From UHGV virus genome UHGV-0075871: a DNA stretch of 37,149 nucleotides; one strand, given 5' to 3'. Of the stretch, positions 29,720 through 37,149 are shown piece after piece. The translations under genes and the position numbers were made by a program. The stretch is from a virus. Each line of letters begins with the position of its first letter. The first letter of the stretch is position 1. The notes under the pieces are model-generated. The model did not search any database. It was given only the letters and a program-made list of their open reading frames with translations, and was not told the DNA's origin.

Positions 29720-30016
29720 ATGCAAGCTATAGGATTCATTGTTTATATCGTCGTTGGTCTTTTTCAGTTGGCAGCAATTATGGCTGGGCTTGAATCATGG
29801 TGGGGATTGCACTGGATAATTGCAGCCCCCATTGCTTTCATCGTGAGCTATATTCCATTTGTTGGAGCGATTGTTGGTATGGTTGGCGCTGTGGATGTAT
29901 GGCGGTGGGAGTGGTGGCAGGCTGGCATTCTCTTCTTTGGTGGGATCATCTTTGCTGTTGTCTGCGGTGGAATGTCATCATTTTTCGAATGGCTATCATT
30001 CAGAAAAGGGACGTGA
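29720..30016 (+). CDS. small multi-pass membrane protein (Trp-rich), candidate superinfection-exclusion function
   Basis: 98 aa, about three hydrophobic helices and a WRWEWWQ motif; stop codon inside the palindrome GTGACATGTCAC, followed by a terminator. Confidence 0.6.
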   Translation: MQAIGFIVYIVVGLFQLAAIMAGLESWWGLHWIIAAPIAFIVSYIPFVGAIVGMVGAVDVWRWEWWQAGILFFGGIIFAVVCGGMSSFFEWLSFRKGT

Positions 30017-30303: not shown

Positions 30304-30843
30304 TTACCAAAACTTGTACCACGGGGATTTATCCTTCAATGGGCAATCCTTCCATCGTGTGGCCAACCATTCATATTCTTTAAAATATGTGTTTATGTTT
30401 TCTTTTTCTCTAATGGCTTGTATAAGAGGTAGCGCAATCTGATAGTTATTTACAACGGAGCTGTAAAATACTTCCTTAATCATGGTCTCATCATAAGTTT
30501 TCCGCTTCACGCTCACAGCCATGCGTTCGTAGAAACCTAGACAGTAAATTATTTCTCTCTTCTCTGTCTTTTCTTCATCCGTAAGATCAGCCTGCCCATT
30601 GCTTGGATACATATAAGAGCGGAATGATTTGTTCGACTCGTGAATGCGGCGCATAGTAGATAGGCCTTTCTTATAATCTACATCAAACCTGCTTTCACCA
30701 AGGAATACTGAAGTGTGTACTTTTCTCGCTGTATTTACATTATAAATAATAGTAGCGATAGCTATGAACAAGCCAAGCGAAACCGCGACTGCACTTACGA
30801 TTTGAGCCACAGCCATGGCAAATTGCATTTCTTCACTTAACAC
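30304..30843 (-). CDS. moron: single-pass membrane protein, function unknown
   Basis: 179 aa; N-terminal hydrophobic helix (MAVAQIVSAVAVSLGLFIAIATIIY) then a soluble Lys/Glu/Tyr-rich domain; lower GC than neighbours; opposite strand; own leader with a 10-codon ORF and hairpin. Confidence 0.65.
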   Translation of the reverse strand: MLSEEMQFAMAVAQIVSAVAVSLGLFIAIATIIYNVNTARKVHTSVFLGESRFDVDYKKGLSTMRRIHESNKSFRSYMYPSNGQADLTDEEKTEKREIIYCLGFYERMAVSVKRKTYDETMIKEVFYSSVVNNYQIALPLIQAIREKENINTYFKEYEWLATRWKDCPLKDKSPWYKFW

Positions 30844-31059: not shown

Positions 31060-31752
31060 TCAGAAGAACCCAGCCTTGTCGTTGATGTACTCCGCGTGCG
31101 TCTGGATATCACGCAGGCATTTGCTCACACCAACGATGTAGCAGAACATGGTGGTCAGCTCCGCCGCCGCGCCCGATACGTCGTGCCCGTCGTCCTGTAA
31201 CTGGTTCAGCAGATTCATCAGCAGTGAGTTCTCCGTCAGGCCGAGAACACCAGACGGAGAATGAATCAGGCTACGGTAGCCGGGCTTCAGTGGAGCACTG
31301 TAGGTTTTGTTCTCTATCTTCATCGCCTGCATTACTGCTGACGCCGTGGCGTTGGCTACCTGGTCGGCAACCATCTTTATGCGTTCTTCCTGCGGTAGCG
31401 AGTTTTTAATGTAACTTCCGGTGCGGCGGATCTGAGGAAGAACCTCGCCTGTAACCCATTCAAGAAATCTGAATGCTCTCGTTCCCTCAGTCATTGCCTC
31501 TTTGCAACGCAGAATAAGGATGTAGAGACCTGATTCTGAAACGATGGATAGTTCTTGTATTCCACCAGGGGTCTGTATTGAATACAGCCCCTTTTTGTTC
31601 CAGCCTTTTTTATCAAGTTTTCTCGCTTGTGTAACATCAATATTCAAAGCATTGCACACATCTTTGGTGACAAACCAAGGTTCTCCGTCAATCATGAACA
31701 TACGGATCTGGCAGGATGACTCAAAGGAAAAGATGGAAGGTTTGGTATTCAT
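31060..31752 (-). CDS. antirepressor-type protein with Bro-N-like N-terminal domain
   Basis: ORF track 31060..31797; start moved to MNTKPSIFSF with AAGGTG RBS; N-terminal FESSCQIRMFMIDGEPWFVTKDVCNALNI resembles Bro-N; C-terminal ~85 aa paralogous to the small gene at 32067..32324. Confidence 0.7.
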   Translation of the reverse strand: MNTKPSIFSFESSCQIRMFMIDGEPWFVTKDVCNALNIDVTQARKLDKKGWNKKGLYSIQTPGGIQELSIVSESGLYILILRCKEAMTEGTRAFRFLEWVTGEVLPQIRRTGSYIKNSLPQEERIKMVADQVANATASAVMQAMKIENKTYSAPLKPGYRSLIHSPSGVLGLTENSLLMNLLNQLQDDGHDVSGAAAELTTMFCYIVGVSKCLRDIQTHAEYINDKAGFF

Positions 31753-31778
31753 GGCGATCACCTTTGTAGTTAGGTTAA

Positions 31779-31811
31779 TCACCACCGCTGAGACCAATCA
31801 GATGGTGGTGA
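31779..31811 (-). other. stem-loop in the 5' leader of the Bro-N gene with hexaloop GACCAA (plus-strand sense)
   Basis: TCACCACCGCTGA-GACCAA-TCAGATGGTGGTGA; imperfect 12-bp stem; same loop sequence as the hairpin at 31949..31964. Confidence 0.4.
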
Positions 31812-32066: not shown

Positions 32067-32324
32067 TTATCTGGTTTGTTTTCGTAATTGTTCGGCACAA
32101 TAGTCGAGATGTGTTTGCAGATCCCGCATAGACATCTGTGAGCTGGTGACGTAGTTAATCAGTGCAGTCAGTTCGGCAAGTGGGCCATCGACATTAAATC
32201 CATCCTTATCGAGATCCCGGAGTAATTTCATCAAGTGCGATCCCTCCACCAGTGACCTGACGCCTCCCGGCGTGTGAATCCTTTCGGTAAATCCGTCTTC
32301 CAGTGGATAGTGATACCGCTGCAT
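32067..32324 (-). CDS. small antirepressor-domain protein (paralogue of the Bro-N protein C-terminus), LexA-controlled
   Basis: ORF track 32067..32342 (TTG start); likely start at the ATG (MQRYHYP...) with GGAGAAG RBS; IHTPGGVRSLVEGSHLMKLLRDLDKDGFNVDGPLAELT...MRDLQTHLDY parallels the C-terminal region of the 31060..31752 product; LexA box about 20 nt upstream. Confidence 0.6.
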   Translation of the reverse strand: MQRYHYPLEDGFTERIHTPGGVRSLVEGSHLMKLLRDLDKDGFNVDGPLAELTALINYVTSSQMSMRDLQTHLDYCAEQLRKQTR

Positions 32325-32345
32325 CTTATCTTCTCCATGCAATAA

Positions 32346-32361
32346 CTGTATATTTATACAG
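32346..32361. promoter_or_regulatory. LexA (SOS) box
   Basis: AACTGTATATTTATACAGTA: CTGT-N8-ACAG with an AT-rich spacer, near-consensus. Confidence 0.7.
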
Positions 32362-32519: not shown

Positions 32520-35126
32520 ATGACGGTCTCAACCGAAGTTGACCACAACGAATACACCGGTAACGGCGTTACGACATCGTTTCCGTATGCCTTTAGGGTT
32601 TTCAATAAATCTGATTTGATTGTGCAGGTTGTTGATATTCATGAAAATATCACCGTACTGACTCTTGATACTGATTATATAGTTACCGGGGCCGGAGGAT
32701 ACAATGGTGGAAATGTAATATTGTCGAAGGCGTTGGCCAATGGCTATAAGATTTCTATATCACGAGAGCTACCGGTTACACAGGAAACTGATCTGCGCAA
32801 TCAGGGTAAGTTCTTTGCGGAAGTGCATGAGGATGCTTTTGATAAGCTAACGATGCTGATCCAGTTAGTCAAAAGCATGGCTCGGCTGGCTCTTCGTAAA
32901 CCATCATTTAGTGCCACTTACTACGATGCACTCGGCAATCGTATTCGTAACCTTGATGATCCATTATTTCCTCAGGACGCTTCCACGAAGAAATATACAG
33001 ACTCATCTATCAAAGGAGTTATTAACAGCAACATATCTAAAACACTCCGCTTCCCTGAGATAGTAAGCGAAATGGCATCAGCATCTTCTAGGGCAAACTC
33101 AATTCAGGGGTATGACAGTTTAGGACGTCCTGTTCCTATTTTTTCAATTACAGATACTGCTGATTTATGCCTTAAGCTAGCAAGTGTCAACGGATCATCA
33201 TACGTTGGTACCAGATTTGGTGATACACTTGAACAGACGCTAAATAGTACTCAGTTCATTAATTCCTGCAGTTTAGTCACATCTAAAACACTTGAGAGAT
33301 TATCAAGGCCTAACTCAAAAATAGTGTTAGTTGGTGACAGCTTAAGTGCCCCATATAATATAAGCACAGTGGATCGATCAAGCATTTTTGCCGCTCATCT
33401 TAAGAGAGTTTTGCAAGAGAAATTCCCAAGTTCTACTTTATTTAACAGAGCAATTGGTGGAATGAGGTACTATGACCTTGGAAAAGATACACCAGCAATT
33501 ACTTCTTATAACTCACAGTACCCATGGTATTCAGACACGAACAGACGCTGGATTGATTACATTCGTGATATTAACCCTGATGTTGTTATTATTGCTTTTG
33601 GCATGAATGACGGAGATGGTTGGGATGTTGGTAACTTCCCGCAGAAAACTTTTTTTAAATTGATGGCTGAACTGAATGATATTACTTCAATGCCTGAAAT
33701 TGTTTTTTGTACAAATATCCTCCCATCAAGTACCACAAGTGACTCTGAATTTAGCAGTTTAGAAGCTCAGAATGGACGAAACGCAATGGCAGGATGGACT
33801 CGTTCATATGCGCAGTATGTTGGCGCTGGGCTTATTGATTTTAATCGTTACTTTAATGCAGTACGTGATGGGGTTGATGTGGTTTCTGGTAATTATGTGA
33901 GGGCAACTATTTCAAAAGATGTTACATTGCCTTATGAATATGAAGATTTATCATATTCTTACTCCGTAAGGATTCAATTTGTAGATATTGAAATCCTTAG
34001 TTCTGGGATTCAATTCCAATTGTCTTCATACCATAATAATTTCATTAACTTGAAATATACAGGCTCTGCCTTTGAAACCACACACTATACTGCATCAACA
34101 GGGACTGTAGGTGTTTTTATGCGCAATATTGTTAAATTATCTGCTCCACTTGGTTTGTTTTCAGTTGAATTTAAACTTATTGGAAACTTCGTTGAGATAA
34201 CACTTAACGATAACGAAATACTATTCAGTAGTAATATTGTAAGGTTTGGTGGTTTATTTTATCCTCGCATCGGTGGTTCAGGGAACTGCAAAATTGATAT
34301 GCAGCCGATGATTCCTGTTAAGCTTAAAAAGTCAATGACTAACGAAGATGTTTATTCGCCTGGTAGTGGTAATAATAAGAATCACCCAACAGCTTATGCA
34401 AGCTCTAGAATATATCCACCGGTTCTTGATGGATGCTTTAATAGCATTTTCTTTAAAGAGATGAAAACTGATGGCGTTTACCTTGATTTTATCACAGGAC
34501 AATATGAAATAGTTAATAGCTATTCTCCCAACTTATCTAAAAAAGGAAACGTATCTGATATTCTTTCCTTTGTTTCAGGTGACCTTATTTATTCCTATTC
34601 ATCAGATATTTTAGAAGGGGCTGTTTTTGGTTCCGCAAATAAATGCTATATAGACAGTAATAAGTTTTTGCTAGCTAATCAGAAATTAAGAGGGATTACT
34701 GTTATTGTTGAGGGGAAACAATATGCAGGTGGAGAATTGGCGTATTATGTCACACTTGGTGAGGGGTTAACTGGTAACCGTCTGCATATGACAATAACCG
34801 ATAATAATATTCCACGCTGTACTGCAGTGATGAATGGAGTATCTTCTGATCTTATCGGTTCAAATTCGTTTCAGGTAAACCCATCTATTTTTCACAAACA
34901 TACTAGTTCAATCGATGTCAATAATGGAATTCATTCTATGGCATACGATAATCACATGGCCTCTGGTAACATTGCAGAAACTGAAATATCTGAACTTACT
35001 CAGGATATTGTATCTAAAATAAAACTTGGTTATGCAAGTGAAACGACTTCTGGAGTTGATGTTGTTATTGCCAGAGTGCAGGTTATTTTTGATGGATTAA
35101 CATCATCTGGAGTTTGCAGGAAATAA
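32520..35126 (+). CDS. tailspike / tail fibre protein with central SGNH (GDSL)-like hydrolase domain
   Basis: 868 aa; conserved-looking N-terminal particle-binding region; KIVLVGDSLSAPYN (GDS block) and IIAFGMNDG (G-x-N-D block) about 80 aa apart; AT-rich distal two-thirds typical of exchanged receptor-binding modules; no clear D-x-x-H block seen. Confidence 0.75.
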   Translation: MTVSTEVDHNEYTGNGVTTSFPYAFRVFNKSDLIVQVVDIHENITVLTLDTDYIVTGAGGYNGGNVILSKALANGYKISISRELPVTQETDLRNQGKFFAEVHEDAFDKLTMLIQLVKSMARLALRKPSFSATYYDALGNRIRNLDDPLFPQDASTKKYTDSSIKGVINSNISKTLRFPEIVSEMASASSRANSIQGYDSLGRPVPIFSITDTADLCLKLASVNGSSYVGTRFGDTLEQTLNSTQFINSCSLVTSKTLERLSRPNSKIVLVGDSLSAPYNISTVDRSSIFAAHLKRVLQEKFPSSTLFNRAIGGMRYYDLGKDTPAITSYNSQYPWYSDTNRRWIDYIRDINPDVVIIAFGMNDGDGWDVGNFPQKTFFKLMAELNDITSMPEIVFCTNILPSSTTSDSEFSSLEAQNGRNAMAGWTRSYAQYVGAGLIDFNRYFNAVRDGVDVVSGNYVRATISKDVTLPYEYEDLSYSYSVRIQFVDIEILSSGIQFQLSSYHNNFINLKYTGSAFETTHYTASTGTVGVFMRNIVKLSAPLGLFSVEFKLIGNFVEITLNDNEILFSSNIVRFGGLFYPRIGGSGNCKIDMQPMIPVKLKKSMTNEDVYSPGSGNNKNHPTAYASSRIYPPVLDGCFNSIFFKEMKTDGVYLDFITGQYEIVNSYSPNLSKKGNVSDILSFVSGDLIYSYSSDILEGAVFGSANKCYIDSNKFLLANQKLRGITVIVEGKQYAGGELAYYVTLGEGLTGNRLHMTITDNNIPRCTAVMNGVSSDLIGSNSFQVNPSIFHKHTSSIDVNNGIHSMAYDNHMASGNIAETEISELTQDIVSKIKLGYASETTSGVDVVIARVQVIFDGLTSSGVCRK

Positions 35127-35289
35127 ATTTTGGCAACTAATAAACATCCTTACATTTATGGTTGTTTATGAATATTGTCATCAAAAACCAATGAATTGAT
35201 AGTTATTTCAGAATATCTGATGGTTAAACATATATGGTTTGTTGTGTGTGGTGATCTGTAAGTGAAGAGGTTCGATATGTACAAAAAAA

Positions 35290-35706
35290 ATGGTGTGTGC
35301 TATGTCGGTTAACATAACAACTGAGTCTTTAAATCAATGGCTTAGTGTGAGCTCTCTTGCTGCGGTTATCGTAGGCGTTCCGCCAGAGGTGGCGCTCGGT
35401 GCTCTTGCTGGTGCGGTAATTTTTGTTACCTCTGCGGTAGAGTATCCAATTCGTCGTCGCGTACTCTTGTCGATGCTCAGCTTTCTCTGCGGACTTCTTT
35501 TCTACAAACCAGCAGCATCAATTCTTATCGGCATAGCCAGCCTGATCCCTACCATCACGCAGGACTCTTTTGAAAAAGGTATTGTTTTCTCTGCTGGCGC
35601 ATTCGTGTCAGCAATTGTCGCTGTGCGTATTGGTATATGGCTCTACCACCGTTCAGACAATCCACGCGATTTAATTCCGGGGAGAAAAGACGATGGTAAC
35701 GCATGA
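35290..35706 (+). CDS. holin-like membrane protein
   Basis: 138 aa with about three hydrophobic helices and a charged C-terminus; first gene of the lysis cassette. Confidence 0.5.
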   Translation: MVCAMSVNITTESLNQWLSVSSLAAVIVGVPPEVALGALAGAVIFVTSAVEYPIRRRVLLSMLSFLCGLLFYKPAASILIGIASLIPTITQDSFEKGIVFSAGAFVSAIVAVRIGIWLYHRSDNPRDLIPGRKDDGNA

Positions 35707-36001
35707 GTTTTTTTTGCTTATCACCAATGCAGTTATTTGTACTGGCATAGCAATTCGCGTTGTCACATTCCGGCGTAACGGCTCTCAACATCGAAGATGG
35801 GGAGGGTGGCTTGCTTATTTCCTTATTGTTGCTGCGGCCAGTATTCCTGTTCGTGTCGTCTATGCAATCTGGTTACGCACGCCAATGGCTGTGGATTTAT
35901 CTGAGGTCATTATCAACGCTGTCATGCTTGCCGCGGTTATTAAAACACGCGGTAACGTTGTTCAGATTTTCAAAATATCGAGGTCTAAACATGGAGATTA
36001 A
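35693..36001 (+). CDS. second small membrane protein of the lysis cassette (holin/antiholin-like)
   Basis: 102 aa, about three hydrophobic helices; overlaps the holin-like gene end and the endolysin start. Confidence 0.45.
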
Positions 36002-36620
36002 ACAATTCCAGCGAGCTGCTGGTATTAGCGAGGCGCTGGCCGCACGCTGGTTCTCGCATATAACTTCTGCGATGAAAGAGTTTGGTATCAGCAAACCAGA
36101 AGATCTGGCAATGTTTATTGCTCAGGTCGGGCATGAATCTGTGGGCTTCACCAGATTGCAGGAGAATTTCAACTACAGTGTCAGCGGTCTGGCTAACTTC
36201 GTTCGGGCTGGGCGTCTCACTCAGGGGCAGGCTAATGCACTGGGTCGCCGTGCTGGTGAACCACCATTGCCACTCGAGCGCCAGCGAGCGATCGCCAATC
36301 TGGTGTACAGCAAACGCATGGGGAACAATTCCCCTGGTGACGGCTGGAATTACCGAGGCCGTGGACTTATCCAGATTACCGGTTTGAATAACTATCGTGA
36401 CTGCGGAAACGGCCTGAAAGTGGACCTGCTGGAGAATCCTGAACTGTTAGCGCAGGACGAATATGCGGCTCGTAGCGCGGCGTGGTTCTTCTCCAGCAAA
36501 GGTTGCATGAAGTATACCGGCGATATTGCACGTGTAACTTTGATTATCAATGGTGGCAGGAACGGCATCGACGACCGGAGAGCGCGGTACATCACTGCCA
36601 GTAAGGTGCTGGCGGTATGA
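35991..36620 (+). CDS. endolysin, glycoside hydrolase family 19 (chitinase-like) type
   Basis: ORF track 35760..36620; start moved to MEIKQFQ with [21 protein letters not shown] and [15 protein letters not shown] match GH19 endolysin signatures. Confidence 0.8.
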
Positions 36621-37099
36621 TCTGGGCATTCGTAAAAGCATACTGGAAACAGTTGCTTATCGTGGCGGTGCTTGCTGTTCTGGTCATATCAGGGGTTGTT
36701 GCCTGGAATGTACACGGTAGTCGTCAGTACGACGCCGGGTATGCACAGGCGAAAGAAGACCGCAAAACCGAAGATGAGAGAGTTCGTCAGCACTACGAAC
36801 AGGAGAAATCGATCAATGAACGTGAAGCGCAGCAGAGGATCGACCAGGCGCGCAATGATGCTCTTGATGCTGCCGCTCGCGCTGGCCGGTTGCAGCAACA
36901 GCTCGTTGCCATCCGTGAGCAGCTCAGGCAGTATAACGCCATTGTCGGCGCTGGGACGTCAGCCGCAGACACCGGAGTTTTGCTTGCCGACGTGCTCAGT
37001 AAATCTCTCGAGAGAAACAGACAACTGGCAGAGTATGCTGACCGGGCAGCCGAAGCCGGAAGAGTCTGTGAAAAACAGTACGACACCCTGACCAGATAG
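36617..37099 (+). CDS. Rz: i-spanin (Rz-like)
   Basis: 160 aa; N-terminal TM helix then Gln/Arg/Glu-rich coiled-coil region; ATGA overlap with the endolysin gene. Confidence 0.7.
36816..37091 (+). CDS. Rz1: o-spanin (Rz1-like lipoprotein) embedded in the +1 frame of the i-spanin gene
   Basis: Internal ATG with AGGAG upstream gives [26 protein letters not shown]...: basic n-region, hydrophobic core, lipobox L-A-G-C; Pro-rich mature region; wholly inside the Rz-like gene. Confidence 0.6.
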   Translation: MNVKRSRGSTRRAMMLLMLPLALAGCSNSSLPSVSSSGSITPLSALGRQPQTPEFCLPTCSVNLSRETDNWQSMLTGQPKPEESVKNSTTP

Positions 37100-37149
37100 C
37101 ATGGCATTTTTCATGGTACTGATTTCCGGTGACGGTATATAAAACGGTA

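What the first reader, a model, noticed from the sequence alone, without database searches (positions are those of the whole stretch)
32520..35126. Tailspike with an SGNH/GDSL-like domain: possible polysaccharide deacetylase or esterase, possibly inactive
GDS (KIVLVGDSLSAPYN) and G-x-N-D (IIAFGMNDG) blocks of SGNH hydrolases are present in the central domain. Tailspikes with SGNH domains (for example phage G7C gp63.1) deacetylate O-antigen rather than cleave it, and that activity defines host range. I did not find a clear D-x-x-H catalytic block, so the domain may be divergent or inactive. The AT-rich distal two-thirds indicate a horizontally exchanged receptor-binding module. The gene is divergently transcribed from the LexA/operator-controlled antirepressor spacer.
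Basis: partly seen in the sequence, partly recalled or inferred. Interest (0 to 1): 0.55.

Follow-up and report, generated by a model that had tools for sequence, protein, structure and literature searches.

The report
Prophage tailspike with sugar-deacetylating esterase domain
The gene encodes the receptor-binding tailspike of an epsilon15-like E. coli prophage whose cutting domain is replaced by an apparently intact SGNH acetyl-esterase flanked by two lectin-like domains, a known kind of phage spike that strips acetyl groups from a host surface sugar rather than cleaving it.

Summary

"Possibly inactive" is not supported. The missing catalytic block is GNNKNHPT (aa 617-624, His622). It lies about 260 residues after block III because a ~150-aa beta-sandwich is inserted into the SGNH domain. 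Ser274, Asn363 and His622 are invariant in 189 homologues. The canonical Asp at His-3 is absent across the family (Gly in 134). The same motifs and insertion occur in Pectobacterium phage Possum gp66 (27% identity, E 2e-32), which has been shown to deacetylate O-polysaccharide.

Domain order: epsilon15-type virion-binding N-terminus (aa 1-245), split SGNH domain with inserted jelly roll, and a C-terminal jelly roll. There is no beta-helix depolymerase. The distal module is AT-rich (36% GC against 48.6% for the window) and occurs behind several different N-termini in other phages.

The gene is ≥99.5% identical in 37 of 5,426 complete E. coli genomes. These lysogens carry at least three O-antigen types and two capsule types, so the substrate is unknown.

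Verdict: a new member of a known kind, of modest interest.

The parts
32520..35126 (+). Tailspike gene, 868 aa plus stop codon
   Evidence: ORF list. Identical RefSeq CDS in 37 E. coli genomes. Full-length match to PHROG 17220. It sits after the tail/injection genes and before the holin/endolysin/Rz cassette.
32520..33254 (+). N-terminal virion-binding region (aa 1-245), epsilon15/Uetakevirus type
   Evidence: Tail and tailspike PHROGs match aa 1-245 only. PDB tailspike Dpo31 matches aa 1-165, E 5e-24. The first 345-435 nt share 78-87% DNA identity with the tailspike genes of Salmonella phage VB_ST_E15, E. coli TL-2011b, PAS61 and Enterobacter phage Tyrion, and the similarity stops there.
33282..33869 (+). 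SGNH esterase domain, first part (aa ~255-450). Block I is GDS with Ser274 (nt 33339-33341). Block II is NRAIGG with Gly314 (33459-33461). Block III is GMND with Asn363 (33606-33608).
33864..33878 (+). RDGVD motif (aa 449-453) at the entry to the insertion. Asp453 is a candidate acid partner of His622.
   Evidence: Asp453 is conserved in 187/188, Gly451 in 183/188 and Asp450 in 172/188 homologues. The motif is also present in Possum gp66 as RDGLD. A catalytic role is inferred, not shown.
33870..34331 (+). Beta-sandwich (concanavalin-A-like jelly roll) inserted into the SGNH domain (aa ~451-604)
34332..34454 (+). SGNH domain, second part (aa ~605-645). Block V is GNNKNHPT (aa 617-624) with His622 (nt 34383-34385), followed by the last helix.
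   Evidence: The family consensus GGNglNHP aligns with CGNDRIHP of BT4096 (7br2), E 5e-4. His622 is conserved in 183/183 and Asn621 in 179/183 homologues. The His-3 position is Gly in 134, Asp in 13 and Asn here.
34467..35123 (+). C-terminal jelly-roll domain (aa ~650-868), presumed distal glycan-binding domain
   Evidence: All-beta model segment at residues 413-619. Foldseek tandem lectin-domain hits span both beta domains. It is conserved at 37-45% identity in about 30 homologues but is replaced in more distant ones.

Best explanation
This is the single receptor-binding tailspike of an epsilon15/phiV10-like temperate podovirus integrated next to guaA in E. coli. The N-terminal ~245 residues dock it to the tail. 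The remainder is an esterase module rather than a beta-helix glycanase. It consists of an SGNH hydrolase domain with a lectin-like beta-sandwich spliced in between the helix after strand 5 and the block V loop, followed by a second lectin-like domain. The proposed mechanism is inferred from homology, not tested here. The two jelly rolls bind a host surface polysaccharide chain. Ser274 attacks an O-acetyl ester, activated by His622. The oxyanion is held by the Ser274 and Gly314 amides and the Asn363 side chain. Because the family has no Asp at His-3, catalysis would run either as a Ser-His dyad, as in CE2 esterases, or with the invariant Asp453/Asp450 of the RDGxD motif as the acid. Deacetylation without backbone cleavage would then give specific, possibly processive, adsorption that brings the tail to the outer membrane, as shown for Possum gp66 and G7C gp63.1. 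The polysaccharide substrate (O-antigen, capsule or a conserved glycan) is not identified.
Against: There is no biochemical evidence for this protein. Active-site geometry could not be measured because the model coordinates are not exposed, so the Ser274-His622 proximity and the identity of the acid are inferred. The block V Asp is missing. The lysogens carry at least three different O-antigen clusters (O15, O102, O17/O77-family) and two different group-2 capsule loci. No O-acetyltransferase gene is annotated in the two O-antigen clusters checked for one, O15 and O102. No acetylated substrate can therefore be named. Oligomeric state and attachment were not tested.
Confidence: 0.75

Rival explanations
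1. The SGNH domain is a catalytically dead scaffold and the spike works as a pure lectin-type adhesin through its two jelly-roll domains.
For: There is no Asp at the canonical His-3 position. The two ConA-like domains could bind glycans on their own.
Against: Ser274, Asn363 and His622 are invariant, and Gly314 is nearly so, across 189 homologues down to ~25% identity. That pattern is not expected for a dead site. The experimentally active Possum gp66 has the same non-canonical block V (PMC9569702). Ser-His dyad SGNH esterases are known to be active.
Confidence: 0.08
2. The enzyme acts on a non-carbohydrate ester such as an outer-membrane lipid, lipoprotein or lipid A acyl chain, or it transfers rather than removes acyl groups, like the SGNH-fold enzymes PatB and OatA.
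Against: The best structural matches are carbohydrate acetyl-esterases: CEX, Ape1 and acetyl-xylan esterases. Two lectin-like domains are fused to the catalytic domain. The closest characterised relative is a polysaccharide deacetylase. No acyl donor is available to a virion protein outside the cell (inference).
Confidence: 0.07
3. It is a dual-function spike like epsilon15 gp20, combining endoglycosidase and esterase activities.
For: The phage backbone and the spike N-terminus are of epsilon15 type. Epsilon15 gp20 carries an SGNH 'petal' in addition to its beta-helix (bioRxiv 10.64898/2026.07.31.742079).
Against: No beta-helix or beta-sandwich barrel is present. The SGNH domain starts about 10 residues after the N-terminal region. 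The whole of aa 240-868 is accounted for by the SGNH domain plus two jelly rolls. In gp20 the insertion lies between blocks II and III, not before block V.
Confidence: 0.03

Closest known systems
Pectobacterium phage Possum gp66 (and Horatius/Arno152 orthologues), an O-polysaccharide-deacetylating tail spike
   Same: The catalytic modules are homologous: 27% identity over 438 aligned positions, E 2e-32. They share GDS, NRxxGG, GMND, RDGxD, the inserted beta-sandwich and GGNxxNHP without an Asp at His-3. Foldseek gives E 3e-33 over 560 columns. Possum gp66 has been shown to remove 2-O-acetyl from rhamnose of the host O-polysaccharide while leaving the backbone intact (PMC9569702).
   Different: Possum gp66 sits on an N4-like lytic phage, has a different N-terminal attachment region (TSP1/gp66 type) and needs an adaptor fibre. 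Its C-terminal domain is unrelated by sequence. Host and substrate differ.
Escherichia phage G7C gp63.1 (PDB 4QNL), esterase tailspike
   Different: It belongs to a different SGNH subfamily. Its domain is contiguous and has a canonical DTTH block V. Profile comparison is not significant, with hhalign probability 2%. Its N-terminus is also different.
Salmonella phage epsilon15 gp20 tailspike
   Same: It has the same phage type and a homologous virion-binding N-terminus (78% DNA identity over the first ~390 nt to VB_ST_E15). It also carries an SGNH esterase domain with an inserted beta subdomain.
   Different: gp20 is a GH90 endorhamnosidase with a beta-helix and a beta-sandwich, and its esterase is a dispensable C-terminal 'petal'. 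Its insertion lies between blocks II and III, and it has a canonical Ser-His-Asp triad (S787, D1035, H1038). The protein studied here has the esterase module only.
Two-domain bacterial carbohydrate esterases: CEX (6hfz), CE2 enzymes and Ape1 (4k3u, 8gld)
   Different: They are secreted or periplasmic bacterial enzymes, not virion proteins. The jelly roll is attached or inserted at other positions. Sequence identity is 14-15%.
SGNH-domain receptor-binding proteins of Klebsiella prophages (PLoS Biol 2026, PMC13123978)
   Same: They are temperate-phage receptor-binding proteins in which an SGNH esterase replaces the beta-helix depolymerase. [quoted passage not shown]
   Different: The host genus and presumed substrate (capsule) differ. 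Direct homology to this protein was not tested.
Escherichia phage anhysbys SGNH protein (A0A6B9XI16) and the Kayfunavirus BDX03P1 spike
   Same: They carry the same complete module, at 44% and 40.5% identity over 95-97% of aa 240-868.
   Different: They are uncharacterised. The module sits on a 149-kb phage and on a Kayfunavirus, a different phage genus, behind other N-termini.

Membership tests
SGNH/GDSL hydrolase superfamily | Block I GDS(L) with the nucleophilic Ser near the end of strand 1 | tested here: met
   VLVGDSLS with Ser274, directly after model strand E28-33. Conserved in 187/187 homologues.
SGNH/GDSL hydrolase superfamily | Block II Gly (oxyanion hole) | tested here: met
   NRAIGG with Gly314 after strand 2. 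Gly in 160/189 sequences and Ala or Ser in 25.
SGNH/GDSL hydrolase superfamily | Block III GxND Asn (oxyanion hole) | tested here: met
   FGMNDG with Asn363. Conserved in 188/188 homologues.
SGNH/GDSL hydrolase superfamily | Block V His in the loop before the last helix | tested here: met
   His622 in GNNKNHPT, immediately before model helix 386-402. It aligns with the His of DRIH in 7br2. Conserved in 183/183 homologues.
SGNH/GDSL hydrolase superfamily | Block V Asp three residues before the His (DxxH) | tested here: not met
   The position is Asn619 here. In the family it is Gly in 134, Asp in 13 and other residues or a gap in the rest, out of 189 sequences. This is also not met in many active CE2 enzymes and in SsEst, so it does not exclude membership or activity.
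SGNH/GDSL hydrolase superfamily | Three-layer alpha/beta/alpha fold with a five-stranded parallel sheet | tested here: met
SGNH/GDSL hydrolase superfamily | Esterase activity | not testable with these tools
   Requires the purified protein.
Deacetylating phage tailspikes (Possum gp66 / G7C gp63.1 type) | Virion-attachment N-terminus and a position in the tailspike slot of the genome | tested here: met
   Tail PHROGs and PDB Dpo31 match aa 1-245. The 5' end shares DNA identity with the spike genes of epsilon15-like phages. The gene lies between the injection-protein genes and the lysis cassette.
Deacetylating phage tailspikes (Possum gp66 / G7C gp63.1 type) | SGNH domain instead of, not in addition to, a beta-helix depolymerase | tested here: met
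   There is no pectate-lyase-type hit. The model of aa 240-868 contains only the SGNH domain and two jelly rolls.
Deacetylating phage tailspikes (Possum gp66 / G7C gp63.1 type) | Sequence homology of the catalytic module to a characterised member | tested here: met
   Met for Possum gp66, with E 2e-32. Not met for G7C gp63.1, with hhalign probability 2%.
Deacetylating phage tailspikes (Possum gp66 / G7C gp63.1 type) | Removal of O-acetyl groups from the host receptor polysaccharide, required for adsorption | not testable with these tools
   The substrate is not identified. The lysogens carry O15, O102 or O17/O77-family O-antigen clusters and different kps region 2 genes.

The most novel reading that the evidence does not exclude
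The identical spike sits in lysogens with at least three unrelated O-antigen clusters and two capsule types. Its substrate might therefore be an acetylated glycan shared across serotypes, for example O-acetylated enterobacterial common antigen or another conserved 'key polysaccharide', rather than a serotype-specific O-antigen. That would make it a serotype-independent entry device for a temperate phage circulating in E. coli strains of at least three O serogroups. Separately, the split-block-V SGNH module lacks the canonical Asp, has an invariant RDGxD motif, and is found in about 290-490 sequence clusters, several of those checked carrying phage tail N-terminal domains. It may be an undescribed carbohydrate-esterase subfamily that uses an acid residue supplied from outside block V.
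Probability: 0.15. Interest if true: 0.6.

Novelty: new member of a known kind. Interest (0 to 1): 0.3.

Why it matters
Tailspikes set phage host range. This one belongs to a prophage found at ≥99.5% identity in 37 of 5,426 complete E. coli genomes, mostly O102 and O15 isolates from humans, animals and food.

It adds an esterase-only spike on the epsilon15 scaffold, whose prototype spike is a glycosidase with an accessory esterase. This shows that the same virion adaptor accepts either chemistry.

The analysis also gives a practical annotation rule. In this family the catalytic His lies about 260 residues after block III, behind an inserted lectin domain, and there is no DxxH motif. Motif-based scans will therefore wrongly call these enzymes inactive.

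If the substrate is shared across serotypes, the module could be useful for engineering host range or for probing surface-glycan acetylation.

Tried and rejected
1. A whole-protein sequence search of PDB found only N-terminal matches. A profile that included the homologues' foreign N-termini was again dominated by those regions. Removing the inserted domain was needed to align block V.

3. I tried to read the substrate from the hosts by typing the O-antigen clusters and the kps capsule loci of lysogens. This found O15, O102 and O17/O77-family clusters, and a K1-type region 2 versus a HAD-polymerase/CatB-acetyltransferase region 2. There was no common denominator, so the idea that a single O or K type identifies the receptor was dropped. 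Only 29 of the 37 carriers were typed (22 O102, 6 O15, 1 O17/O77-family).

4. The 342-aa hypothetical gene in the O102 cluster was tested as a possible acetyltransferase. It has no Pfam hit, and some records annotate it as a WaaS/CpsH-family glycosyltransferase.

5. The O102 repeat-unit structure and its acetylation could not be retrieved from the held literature.

6. The G7C gp63.1 paper is not held. A profile comparison with gp63.1 was not significant, so gp63.1 was rejected as a close relative.

7. The promoter/terminator scan gave nothing above background in the spacer.

Full report
**What is there**

The window carries an ORF at 32520..35126 on the + strand that encodes 868 aa. It coincides exactly with a RefSeq CDS (WP_021523201.1, 'SGNH/GDSL hydrolase family protein'). 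That CDS is ≥99% identical in 37 of 5,426 complete E. coli genomes, always chromosomal.

The surrounding annotation in strain TUM10828 shows a ~38-kb prophage inserted next to guaA. Its gene order is integrase, recombination and replication genes, terminase, portal, capsid, T7-gp14-like and large injection proteins, this gene, two holins, a GH19 endolysin and an Rz-like gene. Gene order and DNA similarity place it with epsilon15/phiV10/TL-2011b-type temperate podoviruses. The first 345-435 nt of the gene are 78-87% identical to the tailspike genes of Salmonella phage VB_ST_E15, E. coli phages TL-2011b and PAS61 and Enterobacter phage Tyrion, and the similarity then stops.

**Checking the observation**

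Both quoted peptides are present, KIVLVGDSLSAPYN at aa 267-280 and IIAFGMNDG at aa 357-365. They are not chance motifs. Pfam Lipase_GDSL_2 matches aa 271-447 with E 2.4e-9 and 38.4 bits, above the 32.9-bit gathering score.

The distal part is AT-rich: GC is 0.36 for aa 240-868, 0.425 for aa 1-240 and 0.486 for the window. A perfect LexA-type palindrome, CTGTATATTTATACAG, lies at 32346-32361 in the 177-bp divergent spacer.

**Finding the missing catalytic block**

A search with aa 240-868 found about 30 proteins that are 37-45% identical over the whole module, plus more distant ones. In alignments the invariant positions include G-D-S (Ser274), N-R-x-x-G-G (Gly314), G-M-N-D (Asn363), R-D-G-x-D (aa 449-453) and G-N-x-x-N-H-P (His622).

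An AlphaFold2 model of aa 240-868 built from 57 sequences is confident, with mean pLDDT 90.8 and pTM 0.88. Its secondary-structure order is a standard SGNH core (strand 1 then Ser, strand 2 then Gly, strand 3 then Asn, strands 4 and 5, and a helix). An all-beta segment of about 150 residues follows (aa ~451-604). The chain then returns to a loop carrying His622 and the final SGNH helix (aa 625-641). A second all-beta domain follows (aa ~650-868).

When the inserted segment is removed from 13 family members, the resulting profile aligns with solved SGNH enzymes through block V. The family's GGNglNHP pairs with CGNDRIHP of BT4096 (7br2, E 5e-4). This puts His622 on the catalytic His and residue 619 on the canonical Asp.

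**Is the site intact?**

I aligned the query with 188 homologues, comprising 57 from the first search and 131 representatives from an exhaustive search of 1.84 billion cluster representatives. The counts are:

- Ser274: 187/187.
- Asn363: 188/188.
- His622: 183/183.
- Asn621: 179/183.
- Asp453: 187/188.
- Asp450: 172/188.
- Gly314: 160, with Ala or Ser in 25.
- The His-3 position: Gly in 134 and Asp in only 13. It is Asn619 in this protein.

The absence of DxxH is therefore a family trait, not decay in this copy.

The decisive comparison is with Pectobacterium phage Possum gp66. It aligns at 27% identity over 438 aligned positions (E 2e-32) through GDS, NRAYGG, AFGMND, RDGLD, the insertion and GGNGINHPS. 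Its predicted structure matches over 560 columns (E 3e-33). Possum gp66 has been shown by NMR to remove the 2-O-acetyl group from rhamnose in its host O-polysaccharide while leaving the backbone intact (PMC9569702).

Active SGNH esterases that lack the block V acid and use a Ser-His dyad, such as many CE2 enzymes and SsEst, are documented (PMC9487903). 'Possibly inactive' is therefore not supported. Whether this family uses a dyad or recruits Asp453/Asp450 from the RDGxD motif remains an inference, because model coordinates could not be inspected.

**Architecture and mechanism**

- aa 1-245 match tail and tailspike PHROGs and the N-terminus of a solved tailspike, Dpo31. This is the virion adaptor.
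- There is no room and no signal for a beta-helix depolymerase.
- The rest of the protein is the esterase module.

The most likely mechanism follows Possum gp66 and G7C gp63.1 (PMC10743462). The lectin-like domains bind a surface polysaccharide, and the Ser274/His622 site strips O-acetyl groups without cutting the chain. This gives specific and possibly processive adsorption. This step is inferred.

**A horizontally exchanged module**

The same module sits behind different attachment domains in other proteins: TSP1/gp66 N-terminal PF18668, tail-collar PF12571 and T7-fibre PF03906. It also occurs in cultured phages of other types, namely anhysbys (149 kb, 44% identity) and Kayfunavirus BDX03P1 (40.5%).

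The module is AT-rich. It uses AGA/AGG for 13 of its 24 Arg codons, against 28 of 232 in six other structural genes.

The wider family, most of whose matches span the SGNH domain and the insertion through block V, comprises 493 clusters at E ≤1e-3, 286 at ≤1e-10 and 44 at ≤1e-30.

**Comparison with known spikes**

G7C gp63.1 is a functional analogue, not a close relative. Its SGNH domain is contiguous with a canonical DTTH block, and profile comparison is insignificant.

Epsilon15 gp20 shares the phage type and the N-terminus. However, it is a beta-helix endorhamnosidase whose SGNH 'petal' is C-terminal, carries its insertion between blocks II and III, and has a full Ser-His-Asp triad (bioRxiv 10.64898/2026.07.31.742079).

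[quoted passage not shown] The finding is therefore a new member of a known kind.

**What is the substrate?**

Of the 37 carriers, 29 were typed.

- 22 have the O102 cluster.
- 6 have O15.
- One has an O17/O44/O73/O77/O106-family cluster.

O15 and O102 together make up only 207 of 5,426 genomes, but clonality confounds this enrichment. Neither the O15 nor the O102 cluster has an annotated O-acetyltransferase.

The capsule loci also differ. TUM10828 has a K1-type neu region 2. The O102:H6 strain has a large HAD-family polymerase plus a CatB-like O-acetyltransferase.

The hosts therefore do not point to one substrate. The remaining options are an O-antigen switch after lysogeny, acetylation encoded elsewhere in the genome, or a conserved acetylated glycan. 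This stays unexplained (note).

**Verdict**

The feature is an ordinary though nicely modular example of a deacetylating tailspike. It has two points of modest interest: the split block V without the canonical Asp, and the spread of one spike across several O and K types.

Noticed in passing
window 32346-32361 (LexA box); ORF 32067..32342 (-); ORF 31060..31797 (-): A perfect LexA-type palindrome, CTGTATATTTATACAG, sits just upstream of a small minus-strand ORF (85-91 aa). That ORF is a paralogue (43% identity, E 4e-16) of the C-terminal ~75 aa of the neighbouring BRO-N domain protein. This suggests an SOS-controlled small antirepressor-like gene derived from the BRO-N protein's C-terminal domain.
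   Followed up: partly
window 34807-37149; L015 3999-6341 (phage BP9, PP488543.1, ~125,362-127,704): The genome record of the lytic Vequintavirus BP9 contains 2,343 bp that are 99.2% identical to the right end of this prophage. The stretch covers the last 320 nt of the tailspike gene, both holins, the GH19 endolysin and the Rz-like gene. It is flanked by an IS2 InsA gene and an integrase. This is either a real capture of prophage DNA or an assembly chimera.
   Followed up: partly
window 13043-13119 (-) and 33237-35123 (+): The prophage encodes a tRNA-Arg(UCU). The AT-rich esterase module uses AGA/AGG for 13 of 24 Arg codons, against 28 of 232 in six other structural genes. The phage tRNA may therefore help translate the imported module.
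   Followed up: partly
related loci L004, L008, L016, L019, L020 (O-antigen clusters); L010, L013 (kps loci): Lysogens with the same spike (≥99.5% identity) carry O15, O102 or O17/O44/O73/O77/O106-family O-antigen clusters. They also differ in group-2 capsule region 2: a K1-type neu cluster versus a HAD-family polymerase plus a CatB-like O-acetyltransferase. One receptor-binding protein across several serotypes is unexplained.
   Followed up: partly
window 11904-12794 (-): A 296-aa minus-strand ORF with no Pfam match sits with the tRNA gene between the terminase and portal genes, against the direction of the late operon. It is possibly a moron or accessory gene.
   Followed up: no
window 29720-30016 (+), 30304-30843 (-): Two small genes lie between the last injection-protein gene and the antirepressor-like genes, in a low-GC patch (0.39-0.42). 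One encodes a 98-aa hydrophobic protein with no family match. The other encodes a DUF4760 protein (E 8e-31). This is the position where phiV10-type phages are recalled (from my own knowledge, not checked here) to carry O-antigen-modifying or exclusion genes.
   Followed up: no
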